Source: Candidatus Heimdallarchaeota archaeon (lineage in GTDB: Archaea > Asgardarchaeota > Heimdallarchaeia > Heimdallarchaeales > Heimdallarchaeaceae). Taken from it: 64,000 bases of DNA. The position numbers were made by a program, and so were the translations under genes. This document shows, one piece after another, positions 47,039-60,722 of this stretch. Where the stretch lies: contig JAUVXV010000002.1 in NCBI GenBank assembly GCA_030603365.1, forward strand, positions 160,001-224,000, read 5' to 3'. How positions within the stretch are numbered: position 1 is the stretch's first letter; each line of letters starts with the position of its first letter. The notes below the pieces were generated by a model. It had not been told where the DNA came from. It was given only the letters and a program-made list of their open reading frames with translations, and did no database searches.

Positions 47039-47339
47039 GTTAATAACCTCTGGGTGTGGTGAGTATCAGTCTTCTACCTTTCTTGGTCTTCCAAGTTTCA
47101 TAACTATTTAAATGTTTCAAATGAAAGCCAATTGGAGTAAGAATGCATTTCTTAAAGATTAAGAATTTCATTCTCATTCGTGTAAAAATATAAATATAGG
47201 CAAGTATTGAATTATCCAGTTAGAAGCCTTAACATCTGAAGAATGCTTTCTCACAATAAGCTTTTAAATTTGTTTAAAAAAAGAGTTAAGTAAACAAGTC
47301 AGCAATGAACTTATAAATGTTAGAATATTGGGAAGTCTA

Positions 47340-50300
47340 ATGAAGTTTAGGAATAGAATAACGTTATTTGTATTATTATTTTCATTTGTAACTAGTTCTT
47401 TGATTATTCAAACAGGTTCATATGCTTTAGAAGATGGAGTAAATGAAGATCTTTTTCTACTTACTGAAAGAACAGATGAGGAAACAGATATAGAGACGAG
47501 AATAATTTTTGATAATTTTAGCAACTTTCACTTCTTTGCTAAGATAGTTTACGAAAATGACACTTTCAAAATAATCCATGTGGTTAATGATGAAACGACA
47601 TTAATAATAGTAGACGAATATCCCTTAGATTTCTTCGAAGTGTTTGCAGTAGAAGATGGGGTCGTTTTATTCTATTCATATCATGCGTTTTATGATATCA
47701 CTTTCTTCCATATGTACACTTGGACGCCAGAAGAAGGAGGATATGATTTTGAGGTTTACCAATACAATTCAAGAGCTAACTATCCACGCATTAGGGTATT
47801 TCCAGATGGACTTAGACATTTTGATTTATTTCTCATATTCATAGCTAATTATCCGCCAACTTCAGAAAATGCGTATACGAAATATCAACATTATAGAGTA
47901 TTCAGAGATAATGTAACAACAAACCTTTGGTATACTGATGAAGATTTTGTAGAAGTTTGGTCTACTGAAGAAGAATTCGATTATATGATGGATATGCATT
48001 ATGCTGATGGTATGGTGTATACAGGATATCAATATATATTTCAAGGAAATCCTGACCATTTTTATATAACAACGGTTGCCAATAGCTCAACTGGTATATC
48101 AAATATCACCAATGTTATGTTGTTAAATGAAGGAAGGTTTGATCCTAGATTTTTCGTTACGAAGGACGGAATGTTCAATCTTGTTTTAGCTAGAAATTCA
48201 AAATTGTATACAATCAGATATGGAGTTAATGATACTACATCCTTTTCAAACTTCACAGAAACAGATATCGGGATTTTCAACTATGATAGTTTCATCGTTG
48301 AAGAAAAAGATAACTATACTGAGTATATTTTCAATTCAGAGCCGTATCTTGAGTATGATGAGTTCTTTGTTGGTGAAAAATTAAAGTCAACTATTTCCAT
48401 TATAAGAGACAATTATACAGGTATTTTTGAGCTGGAACAATTTGACATCTATAATGTTCCAAATAATAAGAATATCCATTCATTTACCTCACTGGAAACA
48501 GACGATGGAGATCGTATATACACACATTCTACATCATTAGAGGAAGAAGAGGTAGAAGAAGCTACAATCTCTGAAGAGAAACTTATTGGATTTTATGTTT
48601 CGAATACAATTGATTTAGGAGTATTTTTTGAACTGCATGTCTCACAAATAGAGATTGTTGGATCTTTGAATTTGTTCTGGCATTCTGCAGGAATTTATCT
48701 AGTTGTTTTTATTGGTTTGATAGGAATTACGATATTGGTCTTTAGAAGGAGAGTCAAGTTAATGTTCATAAACGCGAAAGCATTTTTGACTAGACCATTC
48801 TATGAAGGTAAATCCAAATTTCTACTGGTTTTAACTAATTTATGGTATTTATTATTCAATTCGCTTTCAGCGATTTATACACTATTTAAAACGAATAAAA
48901 AACGGCATATGATGAACCTTATTGGTATGACAGTTCTTGCCGTTATCATAATAACTAGTACTACCGTTTATAGTTCTAAGCAAGGAGTTTTACTTGATGA
49001 GTATTCTTCTAGAATTGACCTACTCAACTCTGGGATTCCTAGTATGACTTTTACCTTGAATTATGACACAGGAGGTTTTGGGGCTCGAAATCCATTATTA
49101 AAGAATTTTGAACAACTTGCTTTAGGAGAAGTTTTAACAGAATTTTATGTGAATTATCCAAATTTAGCTAGTATAATATCCGATTACGAATATATGACAA
49201 CATTTTATGTAACATTAGACAATCCTGAGATTCCTGGTTTAAATTACGTCAATGCAAATTATATAAGTTTGTCAGAGAACTATTCCACAATCATCAGTGA
49301 AAATCTAGTCTCCGGAAGAATGCCTACAAGCAAAGGAGAAATACTAATAGGTCAGGACTTATTAGGTAATGCCAACCTAAATATTACTTTAGGAGGAAAT
49401 TTCACGCTTTGGGGTTCTCAAGTTAACGTCTATAATACTGAAACTGGAGACACTAATGTTTCATTAGAAGTAGTGGGAGTATATGTACCCCCCTCAGGAG
49501 CAAATTATAGCAGAATTTGGAATGAATACAATCTTCCACTAGATGCAATATCAAGTCTCGATGGATTTTTTTCAACAATATTAGGATGTGGCGAGCTGGC
49601 TTGGCAGAATTTGGAAGATCTTTATCCGTATTATATGTTTGTTTCCACTGTTATACAGTTTATCTACGACTTTAGTGACCTTTCACCTAATCAGCTAACC
49701 CTTCTTAGTCAAGAGAATGAGGAGTTAAAAGGTCGTCCAGATACATTCTTCAGTTTTGAACCAACTTATCGCAATTCAAAATGGGATTATTCAGGAGAAA
49801 TATCAGATATGCTTGACATATTAGAACCAAATCTAAATTCATCTGTTTTCTTGTTCTTTACTCTTGCAATGCCCATAATCTATTTAGCAATGTTTCTGAT
49901 CTCTGAGACTAATGAATTATATACTCAAAGTCTAGAACAGGAAATCGAGATATTCCAATCTAAGGGAGTAAAATCAACGCGGATTGCAGTTAATTATATA
50001 TCATTGAAAGTTGTGGAATCTGTAATTGCTACGGCAATAGGATTTGGAATTTCAGTAGCACTAGCACCTGCTCTTCTGAGAATAGATTCGTTTATATCGT
50101 TTAATAATCCATCATCATCTTTGCAGTTCGCTGGAGTAGGTGTAGCTGTTGCTTTTACTATTCTTGGTTTAGTGTTTATAGCAACTCCTAAAATATGGCG
50201 TATGTCCAAAACTAAAAGGGTTAGATTCCAGAAAACACCACAAAGAATTGCTAGTTTATTCAAGCAGATCAGATTACCTCCAATACTTCTTATTGTGGGA

Positions 50301-51722
50301 GGAGGATTAATGGCTTGGGGATCTCTTGCACTATTTCAGCTTCTATTCCAAAGTATTGGAGGAACAGCTAGCACATCCATTTTAATGGTGTTCATCTACC
50401 TAGCAGGTTTTGGAGTTTTACTAATATTCTTAGGTTTAGGTTTACTGTTAAAAGATTTGTTTTCAATTTTAATGATAGCGATCAGCAAAATTTCGTGGAA
50501 TATTAGAAAAAGTTTAGGAACATTCAGTTTAGTTGAAATAAGATCAGATATTAAATTATTCAAGAATATTTACTTAGCATTTCTACTTATTGTGGGAATA
50601 ACACTACCATCTATAATAAGCCCTACTACTTTACAGCTTAATTTTGAAAAAGATGTCTACTTCTATAATGGTGCAGATTTATATATCAATAATTGGATGA
50701 ATTTCAATGAGTCAGTACTTCTACCCCTAGTACAAAATATAACTGGAGTTGAAAATACAGCTTTTGTTAGAGAAATAGAAGGAGCTGTTGTCAATTATGA
50801 TGCTGTTCAAGTATATCTAATTCAGAATACGACGGAATATTTAGCAACGTCTTATCGACCACCCAGACGGATGTTCAAAGATTGGGATAATCAGATAACC
50901 AAATTGAGCGAAAACACTTCAATGATGGCAACCTACATCTTCAATAAAGAGTTTGCAGAAAATGAGGATACATTTACATTTACTGAGGTTATTCCTCCAA
51001 TGGATATAACATTCAGTATCACTGGTGAATTTGATTATATACCTATTTTCTATACTGTAGGAAAATATGTTCCTGGAGAGACAAGCCGAATAGCAGCGGT
51101 TCTTATGACTGAAGCAAACTATGCATTGATAAAACCGATTATTCATCCCGGTCATTCAGGAGAGAATATAAACGATAGACTACTTATCAAAGTGGCTAAG
51201 GGATTTGATCACATAGCTGTCAAACACCAAATAGAAGAGGAATTAGGAATAAGTGTCAAATCTTCAGAAGAAGATATTGAAACAACTAAATTTGAAAGTT
51301 TCCCATTCTATAATATAATCTCAGCTGAATTTGTGTTATCAATTTTAATCTGTTTAATAGCGATTGTATTTATTAGTATAAGTAATCCATTAAAGATTCT
51401 TCAACAAAGAACAAACAAGAATGACAGACTAAAGAAAATGGGAATATCAACGAAGCGTATAATACAGCTAACGATGACAGAAACGTTTATGGCAGGAGTA
51501 CTACCAGGAATGATTATAGGAACAGGAGCAGCGTTCGGTCTGATTTCACTCTTCCTGATGGTAATAAAGAATTACTTCTATTCAGGAATTAATTTCTTAA
51601 TAGATTTCAATTTAGGAGCGATGATTATAGCGTATATCATCGCGCCAGTGCTGTTCATGTCAATATTCTACTTCTCGATGAAAGCGAATTATGCAAAATA
51701 TATGCCAAGGAACCTGGAGTGA
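47340..51722 (+). CDS. Giant FtsX/MacB-type ABC permease with an extra N-terminal extracellular domain
   Basis: Signal peptide; GRMP....EI, EI....SKG, GAD and LKKMG motifs of two MacB/FtsX modules. Confidence 0.8.
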   Translation: MKFRNRITLFVLLFSFVTSSLIIQTGSYALEDGVNEDLFLLTERTDEETDIETRIIFDNFSNFHFFAKIVYENDTFKIIHVVNDETTLIIVDEYPLDFFEVFAVEDGVVLFYSYHAFYDITFFHMYTWTPEEGGYDFEVYQYNSRANYPRIRVFPDGLRHFDLFLIFIANYPPTSENAYTKYQHYRVFRDNVTTNLWYTDEDFVEVWSTEEEFDYMMDMHYADGMVYTGYQYIFQGNPDHFYITTVANSSTGISNITNVMLLNEGRFDPRFFVTKDGMFNLVLARNSKLYTIRYGVNDTTSFSNFTETDIGIFNYDSFIVEEKDNYTEYIFNSEPYLEYDEFFVGEKLKSTISIIRDNYTGIFELEQFDIYNVPNNKNIHSFTSLETDDGDRIYTHSTSLEEEEVEEATISEEKLIGFYVSNTIDLGVFFELHVSQIEIVGSLNLFWHSAGIYLVVFIGLIGITILVFRRRVKLMFINAKAFLTRPFYEGKSKFLLVLTNLWYLLFNSLSAIYTLFKTNKKRHMMNLIGMTVLAVIIITSTTVYSSKQGVLLDEYSSRIDLLNSGIPSMTFTLNYDTGGFGARNPLLKNFEQLALGEVLTEFYVNYPNLASIISDYEYMTTFYVTLDNPEIPGLNYVNANYISLSENYSTIISENLVSGRMPTSKGEILIGQDLLGNANLNITLGGNFTLWGSQVNVYNTETGDTNVSLEVVGVYVPPSGANYSRIWNEYNLPLDAISSLDGFFSTILGCGELAWQNLEDLYPYYMFVSTVIQFIYDFSDLSPNQLTLLSQENEELKGRPDTFFSFEPTYRNSKWDYSGEISDMLDILEPNLNSSVFLFFTLAMPIIYLAMFLISETNELYTQSLEQEIEIFQSKGVKSTRIAVNYISLKVVESVIATAIGFGISVALAPALLRIDSFISFNNPSSSLQFAGVGVAVAFTILGLVFIATPKIWRMSKTKRVRFQKTPQRIASLFKQIRLPPILLIVGGGLMAWGSLALFQLLFQSIGGTASTSILMVFIYLAGFGVLLIFLGLGLLLKDLFSILMIAISKISWNIRKSLGTFSLVEIRSDIKLFKNIYLAFLLIVGITLPSIISPTTLQLNFEKDVYFYNGADLYINNWMNFNESVLLPLVQNITGVENTAFVREIEGAVVNYDAVQVYLIQNTTEYLATSYRPPRRMFKDWDNQITKLSENTSMMATYIFNKEFAENEDTFTFTEVIPPMDITFSITGEFDYIPIFYTVGKYVPGETSRIAAVLMTEANYALIKPIIHPGHSGENINDRLLIKVAKGFDHIAVKHQIEEELGISVKSSEEDIETTKFESFPFYNIISAEFVLSILICLIAIVFISISNPLKILQQRTNKNDRLKKMGISTKRIIQLTMTETFMAGVLPGMIIGTGAAFGLISLFLMVIKNYFYSGINFLIDFNLGAMIIAYIIAPVLFMSIFYFSMKANYAKYMPRNLE

Positions 51723-51728
51723 TGAGAA

Positions 51729-53468
51729 ATGATTAGATGTTTAGACTTAATAAAAATATATCACGACAAAGTGACAGATTATAAGGTTTCAGCCCTTAGA
51801 GGGCTAGATTTGGATGTAGCTGATGGAGAATTAGTGTCCATTATTGGTCCTTCAGGAGCTGGAAAAACCACTCTGATCAATTTGCTATCTGGAACAGATG
51901 TTCCAACTGGTGGACTAATCTTAATTGGTGGAGTACAGATTGACAGATTAAATGAGAAAGAAAGGAGAAAATTCAGATACGAAAGAATAGGACTGGTTAA
52001 TCAATTCACAAGTAGAAACCTATTCTCAAATCTTACTGCGAAAGATAATCTGCTAATGCCTATGAAAATGAAACACACTCCAAGAGAAATCGCAAAGAAA
52101 GAGATGGAAGAACTCCTAACTTTATTTAACCTTCAACATGTCAAGATCAACAGAGCAGCAAAACTGAGTGGAGGAGAATCAATGAGATTATCAGTAGCTA
52201 TTGCTTTAGCTAGGCAACCAGAGTTTGTTTTGGCTGATGAACCCACTGGTCAGCTCGATAGTACAAATACATTTGAAATAATTGATACTTTGAAGGAAGT
52301 AAATGAAGAATTAGGGACAACCATGGTAATTGTAACTCATGATGTGAGATACAGGAATGCATTCAGAAAAAGTTTCCTTATTCGTGATGGAAGATTGGTT
52401 GGAGTAGGTTATGAATCAGATAAATCTCAAATGGATTTCTTAAAGGATGCTTCTGTTTTAAACACTGTTTATATAGATGCTTCCAATTTCATCCAAATCC
52501 CTGAAAAAATCAAATCATCAGCTGCTTTAAGAGATGTTGCTGAATTTGAGGTTCATCCTTCGAAAAAACTTGCCATGATGTGGAATCCTGATCTTGTAAC
52601 TAAAGAAGAAGTATTCAATATTCTTCAGCAATCTCCTGAGGAATATAAGGAAACTGTGGACGAGATTTCTTTTGATGATATTGATTATCTTTTCGATAGA
52701 GAATTCAAACCTAACCCCAAAGCCAAAACTCTAGTTAAAATTAAAGAGGTTCATAGAGGTTACAGGATATTCGGTAAAAATTATCCAGTTATCAAAGGTG
52801 TTGACTTAGAAATTAAGAAGGGTGATTTTATCTTCATGTCTGGACCTTCAGGTGTAGGAAAAACTACTTTACTCAATTTAATAGCTGGTTTACTCAAACC
52901 TGATGAAGGAGAGTTAACGATTGATGGATTCAAAATCAGTCATGGAGATGATACATCTGTTTCAGATTTCAGATTAGCTAATATTTCCTATATCACTCAA
53001 TATCATAGTTTATTCGAACCGATAGAGCTGAGAGATAACTTATTGATTCCTTATCTATTCCAAGGTAAAGATTATGATCCTAGATTAGGTGAAGAGGTAG
53101 CTAAACAATGCCATATTCAACACAAACTTGATTCTTACCCAGATGAACTGAGTGCAGGAGAAAAACAAAGAGCAACATTAGCGTTAGCTCTTACCAGACA
53201 AACTCAGGTTCTACTAGCAGATGAACCTACAGCTAACATGGATTCAGATTTAGCTCGAACTCTGATGGATGTCCTAATAGATGCTGTTGAACAGAACGAG
53301 GTTACCTTCATCATGTGCTCTCATGATTTATCTCTACTACGTCCTGGATTTAGACACATAAGATTAACAGATGGTAAAATCACAGAAGATTCAAGAATAA
53401 CTAAGAATTCTCTAAAGAAAATCTTGAAAGAATATCTGCAGATTCAAGAAGAAAACAATAATAAATAA
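51729..53468 (+). CDS. LolD/MacB-type ABC ATPase with two NBDs and a central AbrB-like segment
   Basis: GPSGAGKT/LSGGE/DEPTG and GPSGVGKT/LSAGE/DEPTA; YID...FIQIPE linker. Confidence 0.9.
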   Translation: MIRCLDLIKIYHDKVTDYKVSALRGLDLDVADGELVSIIGPSGAGKTTLINLLSGTDVPTGGLILIGGVQIDRLNEKERRKFRYERIGLVNQFTSRNLFSNLTAKDNLLMPMKMKHTPREIAKKEMEELLTLFNLQHVKINRAAKLSGGESMRLSVAIALARQPEFVLADEPTGQLDSTNTFEIIDTLKEVNEELGTTMVIVTHDVRYRNAFRKSFLIRDGRLVGVGYESDKSQMDFLKDASVLNTVYIDASNFIQIPEKIKSSAALRDVAEFEVHPSKKLAMMWNPDLVTKEEVFNILQQSPEEYKETVDEISFDDIDYLFDREFKPNPKAKTLVKIKEVHRGYRIFGKNYPVIKGVDLEIKKGDFIFMSGPSGVGKTTLLNLIAGLLKPDEGELTIDGFKISHGDDTSVSDFRLANISYITQYHSLFEPIELRDNLLIPYLFQGKDYDPRLGEEVAKQCHIQHKLDSYPDELSAGEKQRATLALALTRQTQVLLADEPTANMDSDLARTLMDVLIDAVEQNEVTFIMCSHDLSLLRPGFRHIRLTDGKITEDSRITKNSLKKILKEYLQIQEENNNK

Positions 53469-53546: not shown

Positions 53547-55088
53547 ATGAAACACTACTTAGCTGCATCTTTCACTCTGAGTGGTCCTCTACCAGATGAA
53601 AGCGCCGAAGACATAAAAGAATTCTTTACTCAATTTACTGAGAATACACAACAAGCTAGAAAAGATGGAGAATTTGCAATAACCAACATTAATACAGCTG
53701 ATAATCAACTAAGCTTAGTTATAGCATCCATTAATTCTCTCCCTCCTCATGTAGCTATCCTTAGAATTCGAAAACAATTAGCTGAAGCTATTGGTAAAAA
53801 GTATAGAGTCGGATTAAGAGGATTTACTTTTACTAAGTATACTATTGAAACAGAAATTGAACAGGAACCTCTCAAAGAATTTACACTTCCTTTAACCAAG
53901 AAAATTGAATTCAGCAAGAAAGAAGACAAATTCTTTGCTAAAATCGAAATTGACCCTGAAATTTCTGAAGATTTTGTAGAAAAAGGAACTATCGAGCGTA
54001 TAGTTCGTAGAGTCAATGATAAAGCAGTAAAACAGCACTATGGAGCAAAGAAAGAACATCATGAGATAGTTTGGTCAAGTGAGGAAAAAGAACTATTTAC
54101 AGACGATAATCCAACAACCCTAATGCAAGATGCTAATTGGATCCAAAGAACAAATTATCGAAATCAGTGGATTCTATCACCAACAATAACAAAACTTGCT
54201 GAAGCTTTGAAACAAATTATGGTAGATTACATTTACAAACCATTAGAATTTGAACAAATGATGATTCCAAAACTTGTTGACTGGTCTATTTGGCTTAGAT
54301 CAGAACACGCAGAAGGGCTCTATCAAGGTGGTTTTGAACCTTACTTCGTTGTGCAACCCAAAGATCCAACCCCTGAGTATTTTGAGGAAATAGCTGATTA
54401 TATTACTATTACAAAAACAATCCCAACTGAAAAAATAGGAGAAAAAGTAACAGCACCTATTGGAGGGTTATCATATGCTCAATGTCCTCCATTTTGGGCT
54501 TGGTTACAGGGAAAAACACTTACTAAAAGCAGCCTTCCAATTAAGATCTATGATTGGAGTGGTCCTACATATAGGTATGAAGCAGGATCTGCTTATGGTT
54601 TTGAAAGAGTTGATGAGCTCCACCGTATTGAAACCTTATTTATAGGTTCTCCAAAACAAACTAAGAAGATAGGAACTGCTGTTAGAGATAAAATGAGAAT
54701 AATATTCAATGAAGTACTTGATCTTGAATTAAGAGAAGCACAAGTCACGCCATGGTGGTTACAACAATCAGCAACTGAACAAAAAATGGATAGATCAACA
54801 GACCTTGTTGGAACAGTTGATTTCGAAGCTTATATGCCTTATCGTGGGTCAAGAGATGAAAGTGAATGGCTTGAAATTCAAAATGTTTCGATTATTGGTA
54901 CAAAATATCCTAAAGGTTTCTCCGTAAAAGCTGAAGGAAATATTGAGTTATGGTCAGGCTGTTGTGGTGGATCTTTTGAAAGGTTTCTCACAGCATTCAT
55001 TTCTCAGAAAGGACTAAACCAGAAGAACTGGCCTGAGACTTTTCTGAAATATGTTGATAAACTACCAAAGCCAATTAAATTTCACTAA
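53547..55088 (+). CDS. serS: Seryl-tRNA synthetase, methanogen-type (type 2)
   Basis: YAQCPPFW, D.SG.TYRYE.G...G.ERVDE.HRIE, EWLE.QN.S..G.KY..GF and WSGC motifs. Confidence 0.9.
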   Translation: MKHYLAASFTLSGPLPDESAEDIKEFFTQFTENTQQARKDGEFAITNINTADNQLSLVIASINSLPPHVAILRIRKQLAEAIGKKYRVGLRGFTFTKYTIETEIEQEPLKEFTLPLTKKIEFSKKEDKFFAKIEIDPEISEDFVEKGTIERIVRRVNDKAVKQHYGAKKEHHEIVWSSEEKELFTDDNPTTLMQDANWIQRTNYRNQWILSPTITKLAEALKQIMVDYIYKPLEFEQMMIPKLVDWSIWLRSEHAEGLYQGGFEPYFVVQPKDPTPEYFEEIADYITITKTIPTEKIGEKVTAPIGGLSYAQCPPFWAWLQGKTLTKSSLPIKIYDWSGPTYRYEAGSAYGFERVDELHRIETLFIGSPKQTKKIGTAVRDKMRIIFNEVLDLELREAQVTPWWLQQSATEQKMDRSTDLVGTVDFEAYMPYRGSRDESEWLEIQNVSIIGTKYPKGFSVKAEGNIELWSGCCGGSFERFLTAFISQKGLNQKNWPETFLKYVDKLPKPIKFH

Positions 55089-56581: not shown

Positions 56582-57604
56582 ATGATAGACTTACGTTCTG
56601 ATACTTTTACTCTTCCATCCAAAGAGATGATGGAATCTATTATGAATGCGAAATTGGGTGATGATGTCTGGGAAGAGGACCCAACAGTAATTGAACTAGA
56701 AGCCCTTATAGCTAAAAAATTAGGTAAAGAAGCAGGATTGTTAGTAACTAGCGGAACGCAAGGAAATTTGGTTTCACATATGACACATCTTGCTAGAGGG
56801 GATGGAGTAGTTTTAGAAAAAGAGAGTCATATTAATTTGTATGAAGTTGGAGGGGTTTCTCAAGTATCAGGAGCTTATCCAATGATAGTTAATGGTGAAA
56901 ATGGATTAATGGATCCAAAGGACATAGAATCTATTTTCACAACTCCTTATAATGTTCACAAAGTTATTCCAAGATTACTTTGTCTTGAAAACACTCACAA
57001 CAGGGGTGGTGGAAGAATAATTCCAAAGGATAACATTGATACTTTGTCAAAAATAGCTAATGAGAATGGTGGATCAGTTCATCTAGATGGAGCTAGATTA
57101 TTTAATGCTGCAGTTGCTACTGGCATATCTGCAGCTAAACTTGCTGAGAAGGTAGATAGTGTTCAAATATGTTTGAGTAAAGGTTTAGGTTGTCCTATTG
57201 GCTCATTGATTGTAGGAACAGAAGATTTTATTTTTAAATCTAGAAGAAATAGAAAGATTGTCGGGGGCGGAATGAGGCAAGCAGGAATAATTGCAGCACC
57301 AGGGATCTATGCGTTGACTAATATGATTGATCGTTTAGCTGAGGACCATAATCATGCTAAAATGCTTGGTAAAGCATTAGAAGAGATTCAAAACTTCAAT
57401 GTTAAGCCGTATGATACTAATATCGTCATAGTAGATACTACAGAAAGCAAGTTATCAGCTGGAGATGTAGCTGATAAACTAGAGAAAAAAGGTATTCTAG
57501 TAACTTTTATGGAAGATCAGCTGTTTAGAATGGTTACATACTTTGGCATAACAAAAGAAGACGTAGAATCTGTGATTAGCTCAATTTTTGAAGTTTTGAA
57601 ATGA
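56582..57604 (+). CDS. ltaE: Low-specificity L-threonine aldolase
   Basis: DLRSDT, GDDV..EDP, SGT.GN, LENTHN, HLDGARL, CLSKGLG, GGGMRQ. Confidence 0.93.
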   Translation: MIDLRSDTFTLPSKEMMESIMNAKLGDDVWEEDPTVIELEALIAKKLGKEAGLLVTSGTQGNLVSHMTHLARGDGVVLEKESHINLYEVGGVSQVSGAYPMIVNGENGLMDPKDIESIFTTPYNVHKVIPRLLCLENTHNRGGGRIIPKDNIDTLSKIANENGGSVHLDGARLFNAAVATGISAAKLAEKVDSVQICLSKGLGCPIGSLIVGTEDFIFKSRRNRKIVGGGMRQAGIIAAPGIYALTNMIDRLAEDHNHAKMLGKALEEIQNFNVKPYDTNIVIVDTTESKLSAGDVADKLEKKGILVTFMEDQLFRMVTYFGITKEDVESVISSIFEVLK

Positions 57605-57688: not shown

Positions 57689-58531
57689 ATGATACATGTG
57701 TCAATTGATGATTATCTAGATGGTCTCTTATCTGGTAGTTCTGAAACCTCTAAGAAAGCCATTATGAAGCTTACCAAATTGATTGAAAATTTCGGTGCGA
57801 TAATGGTTAAATCAACCGAGAGGATGGAGGATTATATGAATGTATTAGATTCAAGAATAAATGCGGTTGAAAGAGCGTTAGGCGTAGCTTCAGCAGCAGC
57901 AGCAGCAGCACCAGCAGCAGCAGCAGCAGCACCAGCAGCAGCACCAGCAGCAGCACAATCAGCACCTTCCCTCGAAGGAGCTAATCCTGGTTCAGTAGGC
58001 GCACCAAATCTTTCTGCAGCACCAAGTGGAGGAGCTCCAGATTTAAGTGCAATGCCAGCACCTGCAGGAGCTCAGGGTTCAACTGGTGGAGGTATTAGTA
58101 GTGATGATTTAATGAAAGCAGCAGCTGGTTTACAGAAAGCTCCTGAACAAACTGCAGCAGCTGGAGCACCAGGAGATCCAGATGGAGCACCAGCTACTTT
58201 CAGTCCTTTTGGTGTTAGTGCAAATGATATTCAAGGTATACGAGCAGGGTTAACTAAAGTAGACCCTGATGAACATAGGAAAGAAAGAGCAGCAGCAGCA
58301 GGAGAATCTGAGTCAATGCCCGCATCCTTTGCACTTAACATGGAAGTTAAAGATGCTTTAGCTAAACGAGCTTCTCGAATTTCAGAAGCCGATGATGAAG
58401 AAAAAGAATTCGGACCATCTGATGCACCATCAACTCCAGCTAGATCAACAAAACAAATGAAAGAAGCCTTACAAGGTGAGTTAAGAGACGCTTTTAGCAG
58501 TCTTCTTGAGAGCGATACAAACGAAGATTAA
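57689..58531 (+). CDS. Coiled-coil plus Ala/Pro/Gly-rich protein with putative WH2-WH2-C-acidic region (probable start 57689 or 57698)
   Basis: Motifs described under findings; the ORF itself is clear. Confidence 0.6.
   Translation: MIHVSIDDYLDGLLSGSSETSKKAIMKLTKLIENFGAIMVKSTERMEDYMNVLDSRINAVERALGVASAAAAAAPAAAAAAPAAAPAAAQSAPSLEGANPGSVGAPNLSAAPSGGAPDLSAMPAPAGAQGSTGGGISSDDLMKAAAGLQKAPEQTAAAGAPGDPDGAPATFSPFGVSANDIQGIRAGLTKVDPDEHRKERAAAAGESESMPASFALNMEVKDALAKRASRISEADDEEKEFGPSDAPSTPARSTKQMKEALQGELRDAFSSLLESDTNED
57891..57956 (+). repeat. (GCA)n/CCA trinucleotide tract encoding poly-Ala/Pro
   Basis: cagcagcagcagcagcagcaccagcagcag... Confidence 0.9.
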
Positions 58532-58622: not shown

Positions 58623-60722
58623 ATGACAAACGACATTAAACAATACTTAGAATACATCATGAAAATTAAGCCAAACATTAAACTTAGCAAAATTTATCAG
58701 ACAATTTATGATGATTGCAGGGAATTTGTGAAAATAAGTAACGATCCCTATTTTACATGTAAGAATACAAACATTTCGAATATTTTCGATATCTCTTGGG
58801 TGGGATTAACTGAAAATTTCTCTGAAGTTTCAGAATATTATTTATTTGATTTATACTGGCTAGATGCCATCAATTTCGAGGTATTTAGAACAGTTATTCA
58901 AGAACTAGAGAAGAATATGATTCTGGAAAACGAACTCCTAGTATACGCTTTTTGGCTATACTCAAAGAAGAGAAAAATCATTTTCAACTACTTTAGCTTT
59001 CTGGAATTTACCAAAAAGCTAGGAGTAAAACCATTGGGTTTCTCTGATTTCTTTAAATTTACAAAAAAGAATATTTCTAATATCACTTTATCAGAACAGG
59101 AAATCTATGTGGGTAATGAGATTGATAGAATTCTAAAAAATCTTCAAACCAGATCTCAATATTTGGAAGAGATTGCTAGTTCAGTTTCTCCAAAATATTA
59201 TCGATACCTAGATTTCCTAATTGATCAAAATCTGCTGAATGAACTATCCTATCACTATTCAAAACATCAAAGTTCGGAAATTAAGCTTGAAAAGAAAACT
59301 TCAATGGCTGAATTCCAGAAGAAGATTGAGAAGAAGTACAAAGAAAACGAATTCCCTACTGTACCTACTGTTGTAGATCCAATATTACAAAAACATCTTT
59401 CGAAAATCGATGCAAAAGCAGTTTCTATGGAGAAATTAGCTAAACTTCCAAATGAAATAATAAAAGAATTTGCGACCATCCGTGCTTATTCTAGCCCTTC
59501 TGTTGCCCAAAAGATTAGGATAACTTTCCTCGGAGGAGGGAATATAGGTAATATGGGTATCTTAATTCAACATGACAACAACGCAATCGTGATAGATTAT
59601 GGTATGAGTGTAGCTAATGGCTCAATCCCTCGTTGGCATCCAGCACTAAAATATGTTAAAGCAGTTCTTGTCACTCATGCACATTTAGACCATACTGGAG
59701 CACTTCCTTATCTTATTACTCCTGAAAATGGTAAAAGATGGTATGCAACACAGTCAACAAAAATGCTGACTGAGCGATTGTTAAATTCAACAACTTCTAT
59801 TTTGAGGATGAATGGAATAACAAAGAAAAAAGCATCACCCTTACAGTCTGCATATCTTAATAAATCAAACATAATTAACCTATTCAATGTTTTTAACCCA
59901 ATTAAACCTAAAAAGACAATTGAAGTAAGTCCTGGCTTTGAAGTTACACCTTATCCTGCATCACATATCTTTGGCAGCTGTGGGTACAAAATAGATGTTT
60001 TTGGGAAAAGTATCTTCTTCACAGGTGATTTTTCATTAGATTCTAGTGAATTATTTAAAGGTGCAAACTTCCCTACTGATAGCGATGTAACTATTTTTGA
60101 TGGAACCTATTATAATCGTCAAACAACTTTTGCTGACCCTAATACTGTGATTCTTCAAGCTTCTGAAAGTTGCGATAAACTCATTATTCCTGCATTCTCA
60201 GTAGGTAGAACTCAAGAAATGATTAAACGATTGGAAAGATTAAGAATTTCAACCAAGAAGAATATTATAACTACTGGAATGGCTGGGGAAGTTTCCAAAA
60301 TTATGGGAATTAAAGCTAAATATGATATTGAGAAAAGTGTCTCTCCAGATAAATTCAAGGAGAATGATATCGTAGTAACTGGTCATGGAATGTTACAAGG
60401 AGGAACCGCAAGAAATCTATTAGATGCTACAAAAGACGAGAGAGATACTGGAGTTCTGTTATGTGGTTACCAAGCTCCTAATACTGTAGGATTTGCTCTG
60501 CAAAATTCTCTACCTGTTGCTAAACAGAGATATCATCAAAAAATCTTTTCTGCTCATATCAGCGGCCATACAAACTCACAAGGGTTGAATGATTTTATTG
60601 CCAATCTCGAAGGCAAGAAAATAATGGTACATACTCCTGATGACTCTGTTGTTAGAAAAGAACACAAAAATGTTCTAATCCCTGGCTATAACAAGGAAGT
60701 TGTTATAAGAAATCAAGTTTAG
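58623..60722 (+). CDS. MBL-fold beta-CASP ribonuclease with a ~290-aa N-terminal extension
   Basis: FLGGG..G, DYG, THAHLDHTG, SHIFG, FTGD, IPAFSVGR.QE, GYQA and SGH motifs. Confidence 0.85.
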   Translation: MTNDIKQYLEYIMKIKPNIKLSKIYQTIYDDCREFVKISNDPYFTCKNTNISNIFDISWVGLTENFSEVSEYYLFDLYWLDAINFEVFRTVIQELEKNMILENELLVYAFWLYSKKRKIIFNYFSFLEFTKKLGVKPLGFSDFFKFTKKNISNITLSEQEIYVGNEIDRILKNLQTRSQYLEEIASSVSPKYYRYLDFLIDQNLLNELSYHYSKHQSSEIKLEKKTSMAEFQKKIEKKYKENEFPTVPTVVDPILQKHLSKIDAKAVSMEKLAKLPNEIIKEFATIRAYSSPSVAQKIRITFLGGGNIGNMGILIQHDNNAIVIDYGMSVANGSIPRWHPALKYVKAVLVTHAHLDHTGALPYLITPENGKRWYATQSTKMLTERLLNSTTSILRMNGITKKKASPLQSAYLNKSNIINLFNVFNPIKPKKTIEVSPGFEVTPYPASHIFGSCGYKIDVFGKSIFFTGDFSLDSSELFKGANFPTDSDVTIFDGTYYNRQTTFADPNTVILQASESCDKLIIPAFSVGRTQEMIKRLERLRISTKKNIITTGMAGEVSKIMGIKAKYDIEKSVSPDKFKENDIVVTGHGMLQGGTARNLLDATKDERDTGVLLCGYQAPNTVGFALQNSLPVAKQRYHQKIFSAHISGHTNSQGLNDFIANLEGKKIMVHTPDDSVVRKEHKNVLIPGYNKEVVIRNQV

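What the first reader, a model, noticed from the sequence alone, without database searches (positions are those of the whole stretch)
57689..58531. Candidate WASP/WAVE/WASH-like actin nucleation-promoting factor in an Asgard-type archaeon
Seen in the sequence, in order: an N-terminal amphipathic/coiled-coil block (AIMKLTKLIENFG...MNVLDSRINAVERAL); an Ala/Pro/Gly disordered linker; two helix+L-x-K-x motifs, ISSDDLMKAAAGLQKA (about 58094-58141) and SANDIQGIRAGLTKVD (about 58217-58264); then LNMEVKDALAKRASRISEADDEEKEF (about 58334-58411). Established knowledge: WH2 is an amphipathic helix followed by LKKT/V; the WASP-family C region is a helix ending in basic residues (e.g. MQKRSRAIHSSDE) followed by an acidic tract; WAVE and WASH begin with coiled-coil assembly domains; Asgard archaea encode actin, profilin and gelsolins. 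Inference: this is a prokaryotic VVCA-like actin regulator. Caveats: there is no acidic-region Trp (Phe instead), no true polyproline run, an extra C-terminal helix is present, and short motifs can arise by chance.
Basis: inference. Interest (0 to 1): 0.8.

Follow-up and report, generated by a model that had tools for sequence, protein, structure and literature searches.

The report
Asgard VASP-like multi-helix actin-binding candidate
This gene is the long Heimdall-lineage form of an unnamed protein family found across Asgard archaea; it is built more like the actin-binding half of animal VASP than like a WASP/WAVE nucleation factor, which makes it a testable but unproven candidate actin regulator.

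Summary
It is the Heimdallarchaeaceae member of an unannotated, mostly single-copy family with matches in 334 of 400 Asgard genomes: a trimer-type N-terminal coiled coil, a disordered Pro/Ala/Gly arm and a conserved end helix. The 'extra' last helix is that family hallmark. Long forms add 1-3 helix+LxK repeats and a second, basic helix. It is not a WASP/WAVE/WASH protein: no acidic-region Trp (0/52), no WHD/WAHD match, and only an ARPC4-like Arp2/3 subunit was found. The basic helix instead resembles the F-actin-binding (FAB) motif of Ena/VASP: a profile from long forms picks FAB in 8/8 VASP proteins above 1.25 million background windows, and spacing is the same (31 aa). This protein's own copy has drifted, and the WH2-likeness is weak. 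Against actin: the expressed Lokiarchaeum ossiferum orthologue (short form) is not enriched in a published Lokiactin co-IP, and the module also ends Arf/Rag GTPases. The actin complex could not be modelled. Best reading: oligomeric VASP-like actin binder (0.42); rival: docking adaptor for another partner (0.35). The scan found this family before on other DNA.

The parts
57689..58531 (+). ORF, 280 aa (P0001): long form of the pan-Asgard coiled coil - Pro/Gly arm - end-helix family
57704..57727 (+). short acidic/hydrophobic N-terminal helix (aa 6-13), conserved; a similar helix opens the short forms
57743..57877 (+). coiled coil (aa 19-63) with the R-h-x-x-h-E trimer motif at 57854-57871; inferred homotrimerisation domain
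   Evidence: pLDDT about 90; motif in 52/52 close homologues, in 59/88 family members against 2.2% background; most top PDB hits are trimeric coiled coils
57878..58093 (+). disordered Ala/Pro/Gly arm with A-P-N-L repeats; no PPP run here, true polyproline in Loki-type short forms
58094..58144 (+). repeat 1: short helix + L-x-K-A-P (WH2/GAB-like by pattern only)
   Evidence: 52/52 conserved; no Pfam WH2 match; weak against VASP GAB
58217..58303 (+). repeat 2: short helix + L-x-K-V-D, followed by a charged helix (aa 193-205)
   Evidence: 48/52 conserved; aligns in register with VASP GAB, weakly; 1-3 tandem copies in sister families
58322..58378 (+). basic amphipathic helix E-h-K-x-x-L-x-x-R, like Ena/VASP FAB; 31 aa after the Leu of repeat 2
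   Evidence: this copy alone ranks only 391 of 3369
58379..58411 (+). acidic tract, no Trp, least conserved region (0.31)
58442..58519 (+). end helix L-Q-x-E-L-R-x-A-F: second copy of the family's hallmark helix, most conserved part (0.95)
56582..57604 (+). upstream neighbour, threonine aldolase-type (Beta_elim_lyase); same neighbour in the family loci read; no link to actin
58623..60722 (+). downstream neighbour, metallo-beta-lactamase/beta-CASP protein with long N-terminal extension; no link to actin

Best explanation
An oligomeric, multivalent actin-binding adaptor that works like the EVH2 half of Ena/VASP, with the oligomerising coil moved to the N-terminus. Shown: a conserved family with a trimer-motif coiled coil, a disordered arm, tandem helix+LxK repeats, a FAB-like basic helix and a conserved end helix. 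Inferred: three chains join through the coil; the basic helix (and perhaps the end helix) holds a filament side or end; the LxK repeats bind monomers weakly in the barbed-end cleft and hand them on. The result would be elongation, tethering or bundling without Arp2/3. Short forms in other Asgard lineages keep only coil, arm and one helix, and would only tether or cross-link.
For: A profile of the basic helix from ten Heimdallarchaeia long forms picks the FAB motif in 8/8 Ena/VASP proteins, scoring above all 1.25 million background windows; this holds with the near-identical f31 sequences left out. Reverse test: a VASP FAB profile scores 13 of 27 family members above every window of this genome, and the family helix is the top six-frame hit in 5 of 8 f31 genomes. 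Profile-profile probability 94%. Order and spacing match GAB then FAB: 23-35 aa in long forms, 31-43 in VASP. LxK repeats vary in copy number, 1-3. The family is nearly as widespread as Asgard actin. The genome has a eukaryote-type actin and gelsolins. Papers state that Asgard nucleation machinery is undiscovered (PMC9433394) and name no VASP-type polymerase (PMC13716822).
Against: This protein's own motifs score poorly: FAB rank 391, GAB rank 886 of 3369. The LxK repeats match GAB only in the last nine columns and hit no WH2 structure. The FAB comparison was chosen after seeing the likeness, the motif is 15 aa, the background is archaeal, and basic amphipathic helices are common. The L. ossiferum orthologue (short form; identifier inferred by adjacency and mass) is well expressed but absent from all stored Lokiactin co-IP rows down to log2 ratio -1.06, while gelsolins and a profilin are enriched. 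Gene neighbours are housekeeping. No polyproline in this genus. I could not confirm a fusion to gelsolin.
Confidence: 0.42

Rival explanations
1. A portable docking adaptor for a partner other than actin. The coil oligomerises and the end helix is a short linear motif that docks on a common hub, such as a small-GTPase, roadblock/longin or AAA-ATPase system. The FAB likeness is convergence.
For: The whole module (coil, Pro arm, end helix) forms the C-terminus of Arf/Rag-type GTPases in several lineages, of a HEAT-repeat protein and of a helical-repeat-like protein; the helix alone sits in a 697-aa membrane protein. The short orthologue is not enriched with Lokiactin. The most conserved helix here is net acidic.
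Against: Reuse in many proteins is also what an actin-binding motif does. It does not explain the tandem LxK repeats ahead of a FAB-like helix at VASP spacing. No partner gene is linked.
Confidence: 0.35
2. The helices are membrane-targeting amphipathic helices (MinD/FtsA/SepF type, from my own knowledge); the trimer tethers something to the membrane or cross-links membranes.
For: Terminal position, a hydrophobic face and basic ends in the short forms.
Against: In this protein the repeats are neutral and the end helix is net -1 with an acidic tail. The invariant Glu and fixed register suggest a protein site.
Confidence: 0.1
3. A true WASP/WAVE/WASH-type nucleation-promoting factor (VVCA) that activates an Arp2/3-like complex.
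For: Motif order coil - arm - repeat - repeat - helix - acid. An ARPC4-like gene is in the genome. The coil aligns without gaps to BRK1 over 41 residues; BRK1 and CCDC53 are trimeric coils (10.64898/2026.09.18.752629).
Against: No Trp in 52/52 and an unconserved acidic tract. BRK1 scores E 0.3-44, no better than haemagglutinin or GCN4 coils. No Abi, WAHD or CCDC53 match and no specific HSBP1 match. No ARPC2 match (control blank). No WASP/WAVE chain hit.
Confidence: 0.06
4. The last helix is a MIT-interacting motif (MIM1-like) and the protein is an ESCRT/Vps4 accessory factor.
For: Some long forms end in L-x-x-R-L-x-x-x-F-K, close to MIM1 (recalled, not tested by profile).
Against: The register is one residue longer than MIM1; this protein has Glu where MIM1 needs Arg; no ESCRT gene is among the neighbours read.
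Confidence: 0.05

Closest known systems
Ena/VASP EVH2 module (human VASP GAB 223-239, FAB 259-278, tetramer coil 343-380; PMC10340426, PMC3034019)
   Same: Disordered Pro-containing arm, then an LxK-type motif, then a basic amphipathic helix that matches FAB by profile, at the same spacing; an oligomerising coiled coil.
   Different: No EVH1; the coil is N-terminal with a trimer motif, not a C-terminal tetramer; 1-3 LxK repeats with a shorter helix-to-Leu link; a second end helix; no polyproline in this genus; no activity shown.
WASP/WAVE/WASH nucleation-promoting factors (VCA)
   Same: N-terminal trimer-type coil, Pro-containing arm, then repeat(s), helix and acidic stretch in that order.
   Different: No acidic-region Trp, no WHD/WAHD homology, no profile match to WH2 or to WASP/WAVE chains, no complete Arp2/3 complex found.
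BRK1, CCDC53, HSBP1 trimeric coiled coils
   Same: A 45-residue coil with the R-h-x-x-h-E motif in the same register as BRK1.
   Different: Scores are no better than unrelated trimeric coils; homology not shown.
Asgard gelsolins with a WH2-like motif (2DGel; PMC9433394) and 1DGelX (PMC7444086)
   Same: Shows that LKKT-like motifs bind actin in Asgard archaea.
   Different: No gelsolin domain here; my profiles did not match the gelsolins scanned.

Membership tests
WASP/WAVE/WASH NPF | WH2 (V) domain | tested here: inconclusive
   Pfam PF02205 negative and no WH2 structure hit, but Pfam also misses the GAB of VASP itself
WASP/WAVE/WASH NPF | Central (C) amphipathic helix | tested here: inconclusive
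   A basic amphipathic helix is present, but its profile finds no WASP/WAVE chain in the PDB at E up to 10; WASH C not tested
WASP/WAVE/WASH NPF | Acidic (A) region with conserved Trp at the C-terminus | tested here: not met
   0 of 52 homologues have any Trp; tract identity 0.31 and not terminal
WASP/WAVE/WASH NPF | Polyproline region | tested here: not met
   No PPP in 52/52; present only in short forms of other lineages
WASP/WAVE/WASH NPF | N-terminal WHD/WAHD assembly domain | tested here: not met
   PF11945, PF07815, PF10152 do not hit the family; BRK1 E 0.3-44
WASP/WAVE/WASH NPF | Arp2/3 complex as target | tested here: inconclusive
   ARPC4-like present; ARPC2 not found, control blank; three actin-family genes, none a clear Arp2/Arp3; genome 89% complete
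WASP/WAVE/WASH NPF | Activates branched nucleation | not testable with these tools
   needs a bench assay
Ena/VASP | EVH1 domain | tested here: not met
   no Pfam family at E up to 10; N-terminus is a coiled coil
Ena/VASP | GAB motif | tested here: inconclusive
   in-register alignment at P 0.004; rank 886 of 3369
Ena/VASP | FAB helix after GAB | tested here: met
   met at family level; weak for this protein's own copy
Ena/VASP | C-terminal tetramerising coiled coil | tested here: not met
   no PF08776 match; oligomer coil is N-terminal with a trimer motif
Ena/VASP | Binds actin and speeds elongation | not testable with these tools
   complex prediction was not run by the tool; published co-IP negative for the short orthologue

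The most novel reading that the evidence does not exclude
The family is the missing Asgard actin polymerase/tether, present since the Asgard ancestor, and its repeat-plus-basic-helix unit is homologous to the GAB-FAB (WH2-C) unit of eukaryotes. The Heimdallarchaeia long form (trimer coil, arm, tandem WH2-like repeats, FAB-like helix) would then be the closest living model of the protein from which Ena/VASP and WASP-family tails arose, before Arp2/3.
Probability: 0.22. Interest if true: 0.9.

Novelty: new variant of a known kind. Interest (0 to 1): 0.6.

Why it matters
Asgard archaea crawl with actin-filled protrusions, yet only profilins and gelsolins are established regulators, and the papers read say nucleation or elongation machinery is still undiscovered (PMC9433394; PMC13716822). 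A small, soluble, near-universal family with a named member in a cultured species (L. ossiferum NEF87_002201, inferred) makes that question directly testable with peptides and recombinant protein. The long form in Heimdallarchaeia is the version with WH2-like repeats. Even if actin is not the partner, a near-universal Asgard docking module reused on small GTPases is not described in the papers I could search.

Tried and rejected
RNA runs: none was listed. Pfam on the protein, the repeats and the helices: nothing. WH2, CCDC53, Abi_HHR, WASH_WAHD and HSBP1 profiles over genomes: no specific hit on the family. PDB sequence searches: only generic coils, haemagglutinin HA2 and a chance NSF stretch. 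BRK1 homology: gap-free alignment but chance-level score, rejected as evidence. Gelsolin fusion reported by earlier notes: not found in about 30 gelsolin-type proteins scanned; not excluded, since B35_Gel1/Gel2 were not fetched. 'Heimdall-only' range: rejected. Profilin Pfam search of the genome: blank, with a blank control, so uninformative. Full-library search with the single protein reached only 12 clusters. Literature searches found no description of the family or of its L. ossiferum accession. Synteny gives no functional clue.

Full report
Observation. The ORF at 57689-58531 encodes 280 aa between a threonine-aldolase-type gene and a metallo-beta-lactamase/beta-CASP gene. It has no Pfam family at E up to 10. 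Homologues named by their sources are from Candidatus Heimdallarchaeota/Heimdallarchaeaceae; 26 of 30 genomes of the family match, essentially in one copy. AlphaFold2 shows separate helices in a disordered chain, pTM 0.22.

The family is pan-Asgard. A profile of the long forms reached long forms in four more families of the class, with one to three helix+LxK repeats, and weakly reached short proteins of 130-190 aa in other classes. A profile built only from those short forms matched 334 of 400 Asgard genomes, mostly once (the weakest matches may be unrelated coils). Its best hit in this genome is this protein, E 2.9e-10 against 4.6e-4 for the next. Profile-profile comparison links the two N-termini at 98%. 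The ESM Atlas gives the same three clusters for this protein and for the L. ossiferum short form (scores 0.82-0.83 for this protein, lead level). All named hits of the short-form search are Asgard. The shared plan is a short helix, a coiled coil, a Pro/Gly/Ala arm and an end helix. This protein carries two copies of that helix: aa 256-272 ranks first and aa 211-227 within the top 27 of 1.24 million windows for an end-helix profile from short forms only. So the 'extra' helix is the family hallmark.

The coil. The R-h-x-x-h-E motif, a known trimer signal (own knowledge), is in 52/52 close homologues and 59/88 family members, against 2.2% of background N-termini. Most top PDB hits are trimeric coils. 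A homotrimer is inferred, not shown. BRK1 aligns without gaps but at chance level; Abi, WASH, CCDC53 and HSBP1 profiles do not single the family out. WAVE/WASH homology of the N-terminus is therefore not supported.

The tail. The VCA reading fails on the A region: no Trp in any of 52 homologues, and the tract is the least conserved part. The helix profile finds no WASP or WAVE chain. The genome has an ARPC4-like gene but no ARPC2 match, and its three actin-family genes are not a clear Arp2/Arp3 pair. The measurable likeness is to Ena/VASP. With VASP-family sequences fetched here, a profile of the basic helix from ten long forms picks FAB in 8/8 proteins above all 1.25 million background windows; so does the family-wide profile without the f31 sequences. 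In reverse, a FAB profile scores 13 of 27 family members above every window of this genome and finds the family helix as top hit in 5 of 8 f31 genomes; hhalign gives 94%. Repeat 2 and the helix align together with GAB and FAB, 31 aa apart in both. Limits: I chose FAB after seeing the likeness; the motif is short; this protein's own helix ranks only 391 of 3369 and its repeats 886; the repeats match GAB only around the LxK end. Pfam WH2 is negative, but it also misses VASP itself.

Experimental data. G137 is L. ossiferum; its orthologue lies between NEF87_002200 and NEF87_002203, so it is NEF87_002201 by position. In the tables of Radler et al. (10.1101/2025.11.30.690169), GNAMCCOK_02218 has the mass of the upstream neighbour, so the orthologue is GNAMCCOK_02219 (inferred). 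It is expressed at 18.5, between the two profilins, but is absent from every stored Lokiactin co-IP row from the top down to log2 ratio -1.06. That counts against stable actin binding by the short form. It does not test the long form with repeats, and weak binders can be lost.

Reuse of the module. Coil, arm and end helix form the C-terminus of Arf/Rag-type GTPases in several lineages, of a HEAT-repeat protein and of a helical-repeat-like protein; the helix also sits inside a 697-aa membrane protein. This shows a portable docking unit. It does not name the partner. A gelsolin fusion reported in earlier notes was not confirmed.

Mechanism. Most likely (0.42) a trimeric VASP-like actin binder: the coil gives three arms, the basic helix holds a filament, and the repeats bind monomers weakly, giving elongation, tethering or bundling without Arp2/3; VASP's GAB plus FAB suffice for this when clustered (PMC3034019). 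Every step after the sequence features is inference. Close rival (0.35): a docking adaptor for a non-actin hub. Membrane targeting 0.10, true NPF 0.06, MIM-type 0.05. The decisive complex prediction was not run by the tool.

Verdict. Not a member of the WASP or Ena/VASP families; it may work like EVH2. I found no paper describing the family, and papers state that Asgard nucleation machinery is unknown. The scan has reported this family several times on other DNA; my reading was noted before those look-ups. Interest 0.6.

Noticed in passing
window 58623-60722: 699-aa metallo-beta-lactamase/beta-CASP protein with a 300-aa N-terminal extension of no known family; a similar gene follows in the family loci read.
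   Followed up: no
window 53547-55088: Class II tRNA synthetase with PF18490 tRNA-binding domain, probably the methanogen-type seryl-tRNA synthetase.
   Followed up: no
window 47328-53468: 1464-aa ABC permease-like protein with a long N-terminal region, followed by a 579-aa protein with two ABC ATPase domains.
   Followed up: no
G000 C15:373119-373427: ARPC4-like gene over the Pfam cut-off; also in two other genomes of the family.
   Followed up: partly
G000 C13:60771-61961 and C2:78729-80177: A second close actin and a divergent actin with an N-terminal extension, besides the main actin at C1:309232-310374.
   Followed up: no
L179:1383-2009: 209-aa protein with a gelsolin-like N-terminal domain (by eye and by its hits) and a C-terminal helical part; found in 13/13 genomes of the family.
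   Followed up: partly
G000 C1:145088-145750; L172:1108-1677; L173:1093-1665: A second family with a similar N-terminal coil but a C-terminal helical domain; the Loki-type copies lie next to a longin-like gene.
   Followed up: partly
L161:664-2754: 697-aa protein with C-terminal membrane helices that carries a Pro tract and the family end helix in its middle; no Pfam family.
   Followed up: partly
L064:2583-3423; L245:1371-2288; L242:707-1576: Tandem duplicate of the short form in one lineage; two other proteins carry several copies of the end-helix motif.
   Followed up: no
L255:1528-2124: Short form in family f5 has PPP runs and ends in Trp plus acidic residues after the helix, the only A-region-like end seen.
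   Followed up: no
L121:5237-5854: The Elf1-like upstream neighbour of the L. ossiferum orthologue is mildly enriched in the Lokiactin co-IP (log2 1.36); several stronger hits (GNAMCCOK_00333, 02751, 04250, 04085) were not identified here.
   Followed up: no
L240:1092-2105; L241:1066-2118; L251:1004-1900; L257:1043-1612; L065:2949-3503: Longer forms outside Heimdallarchaeia also place an L-L-K-P motif ahead of the conserved helix.
   Followed up: partly
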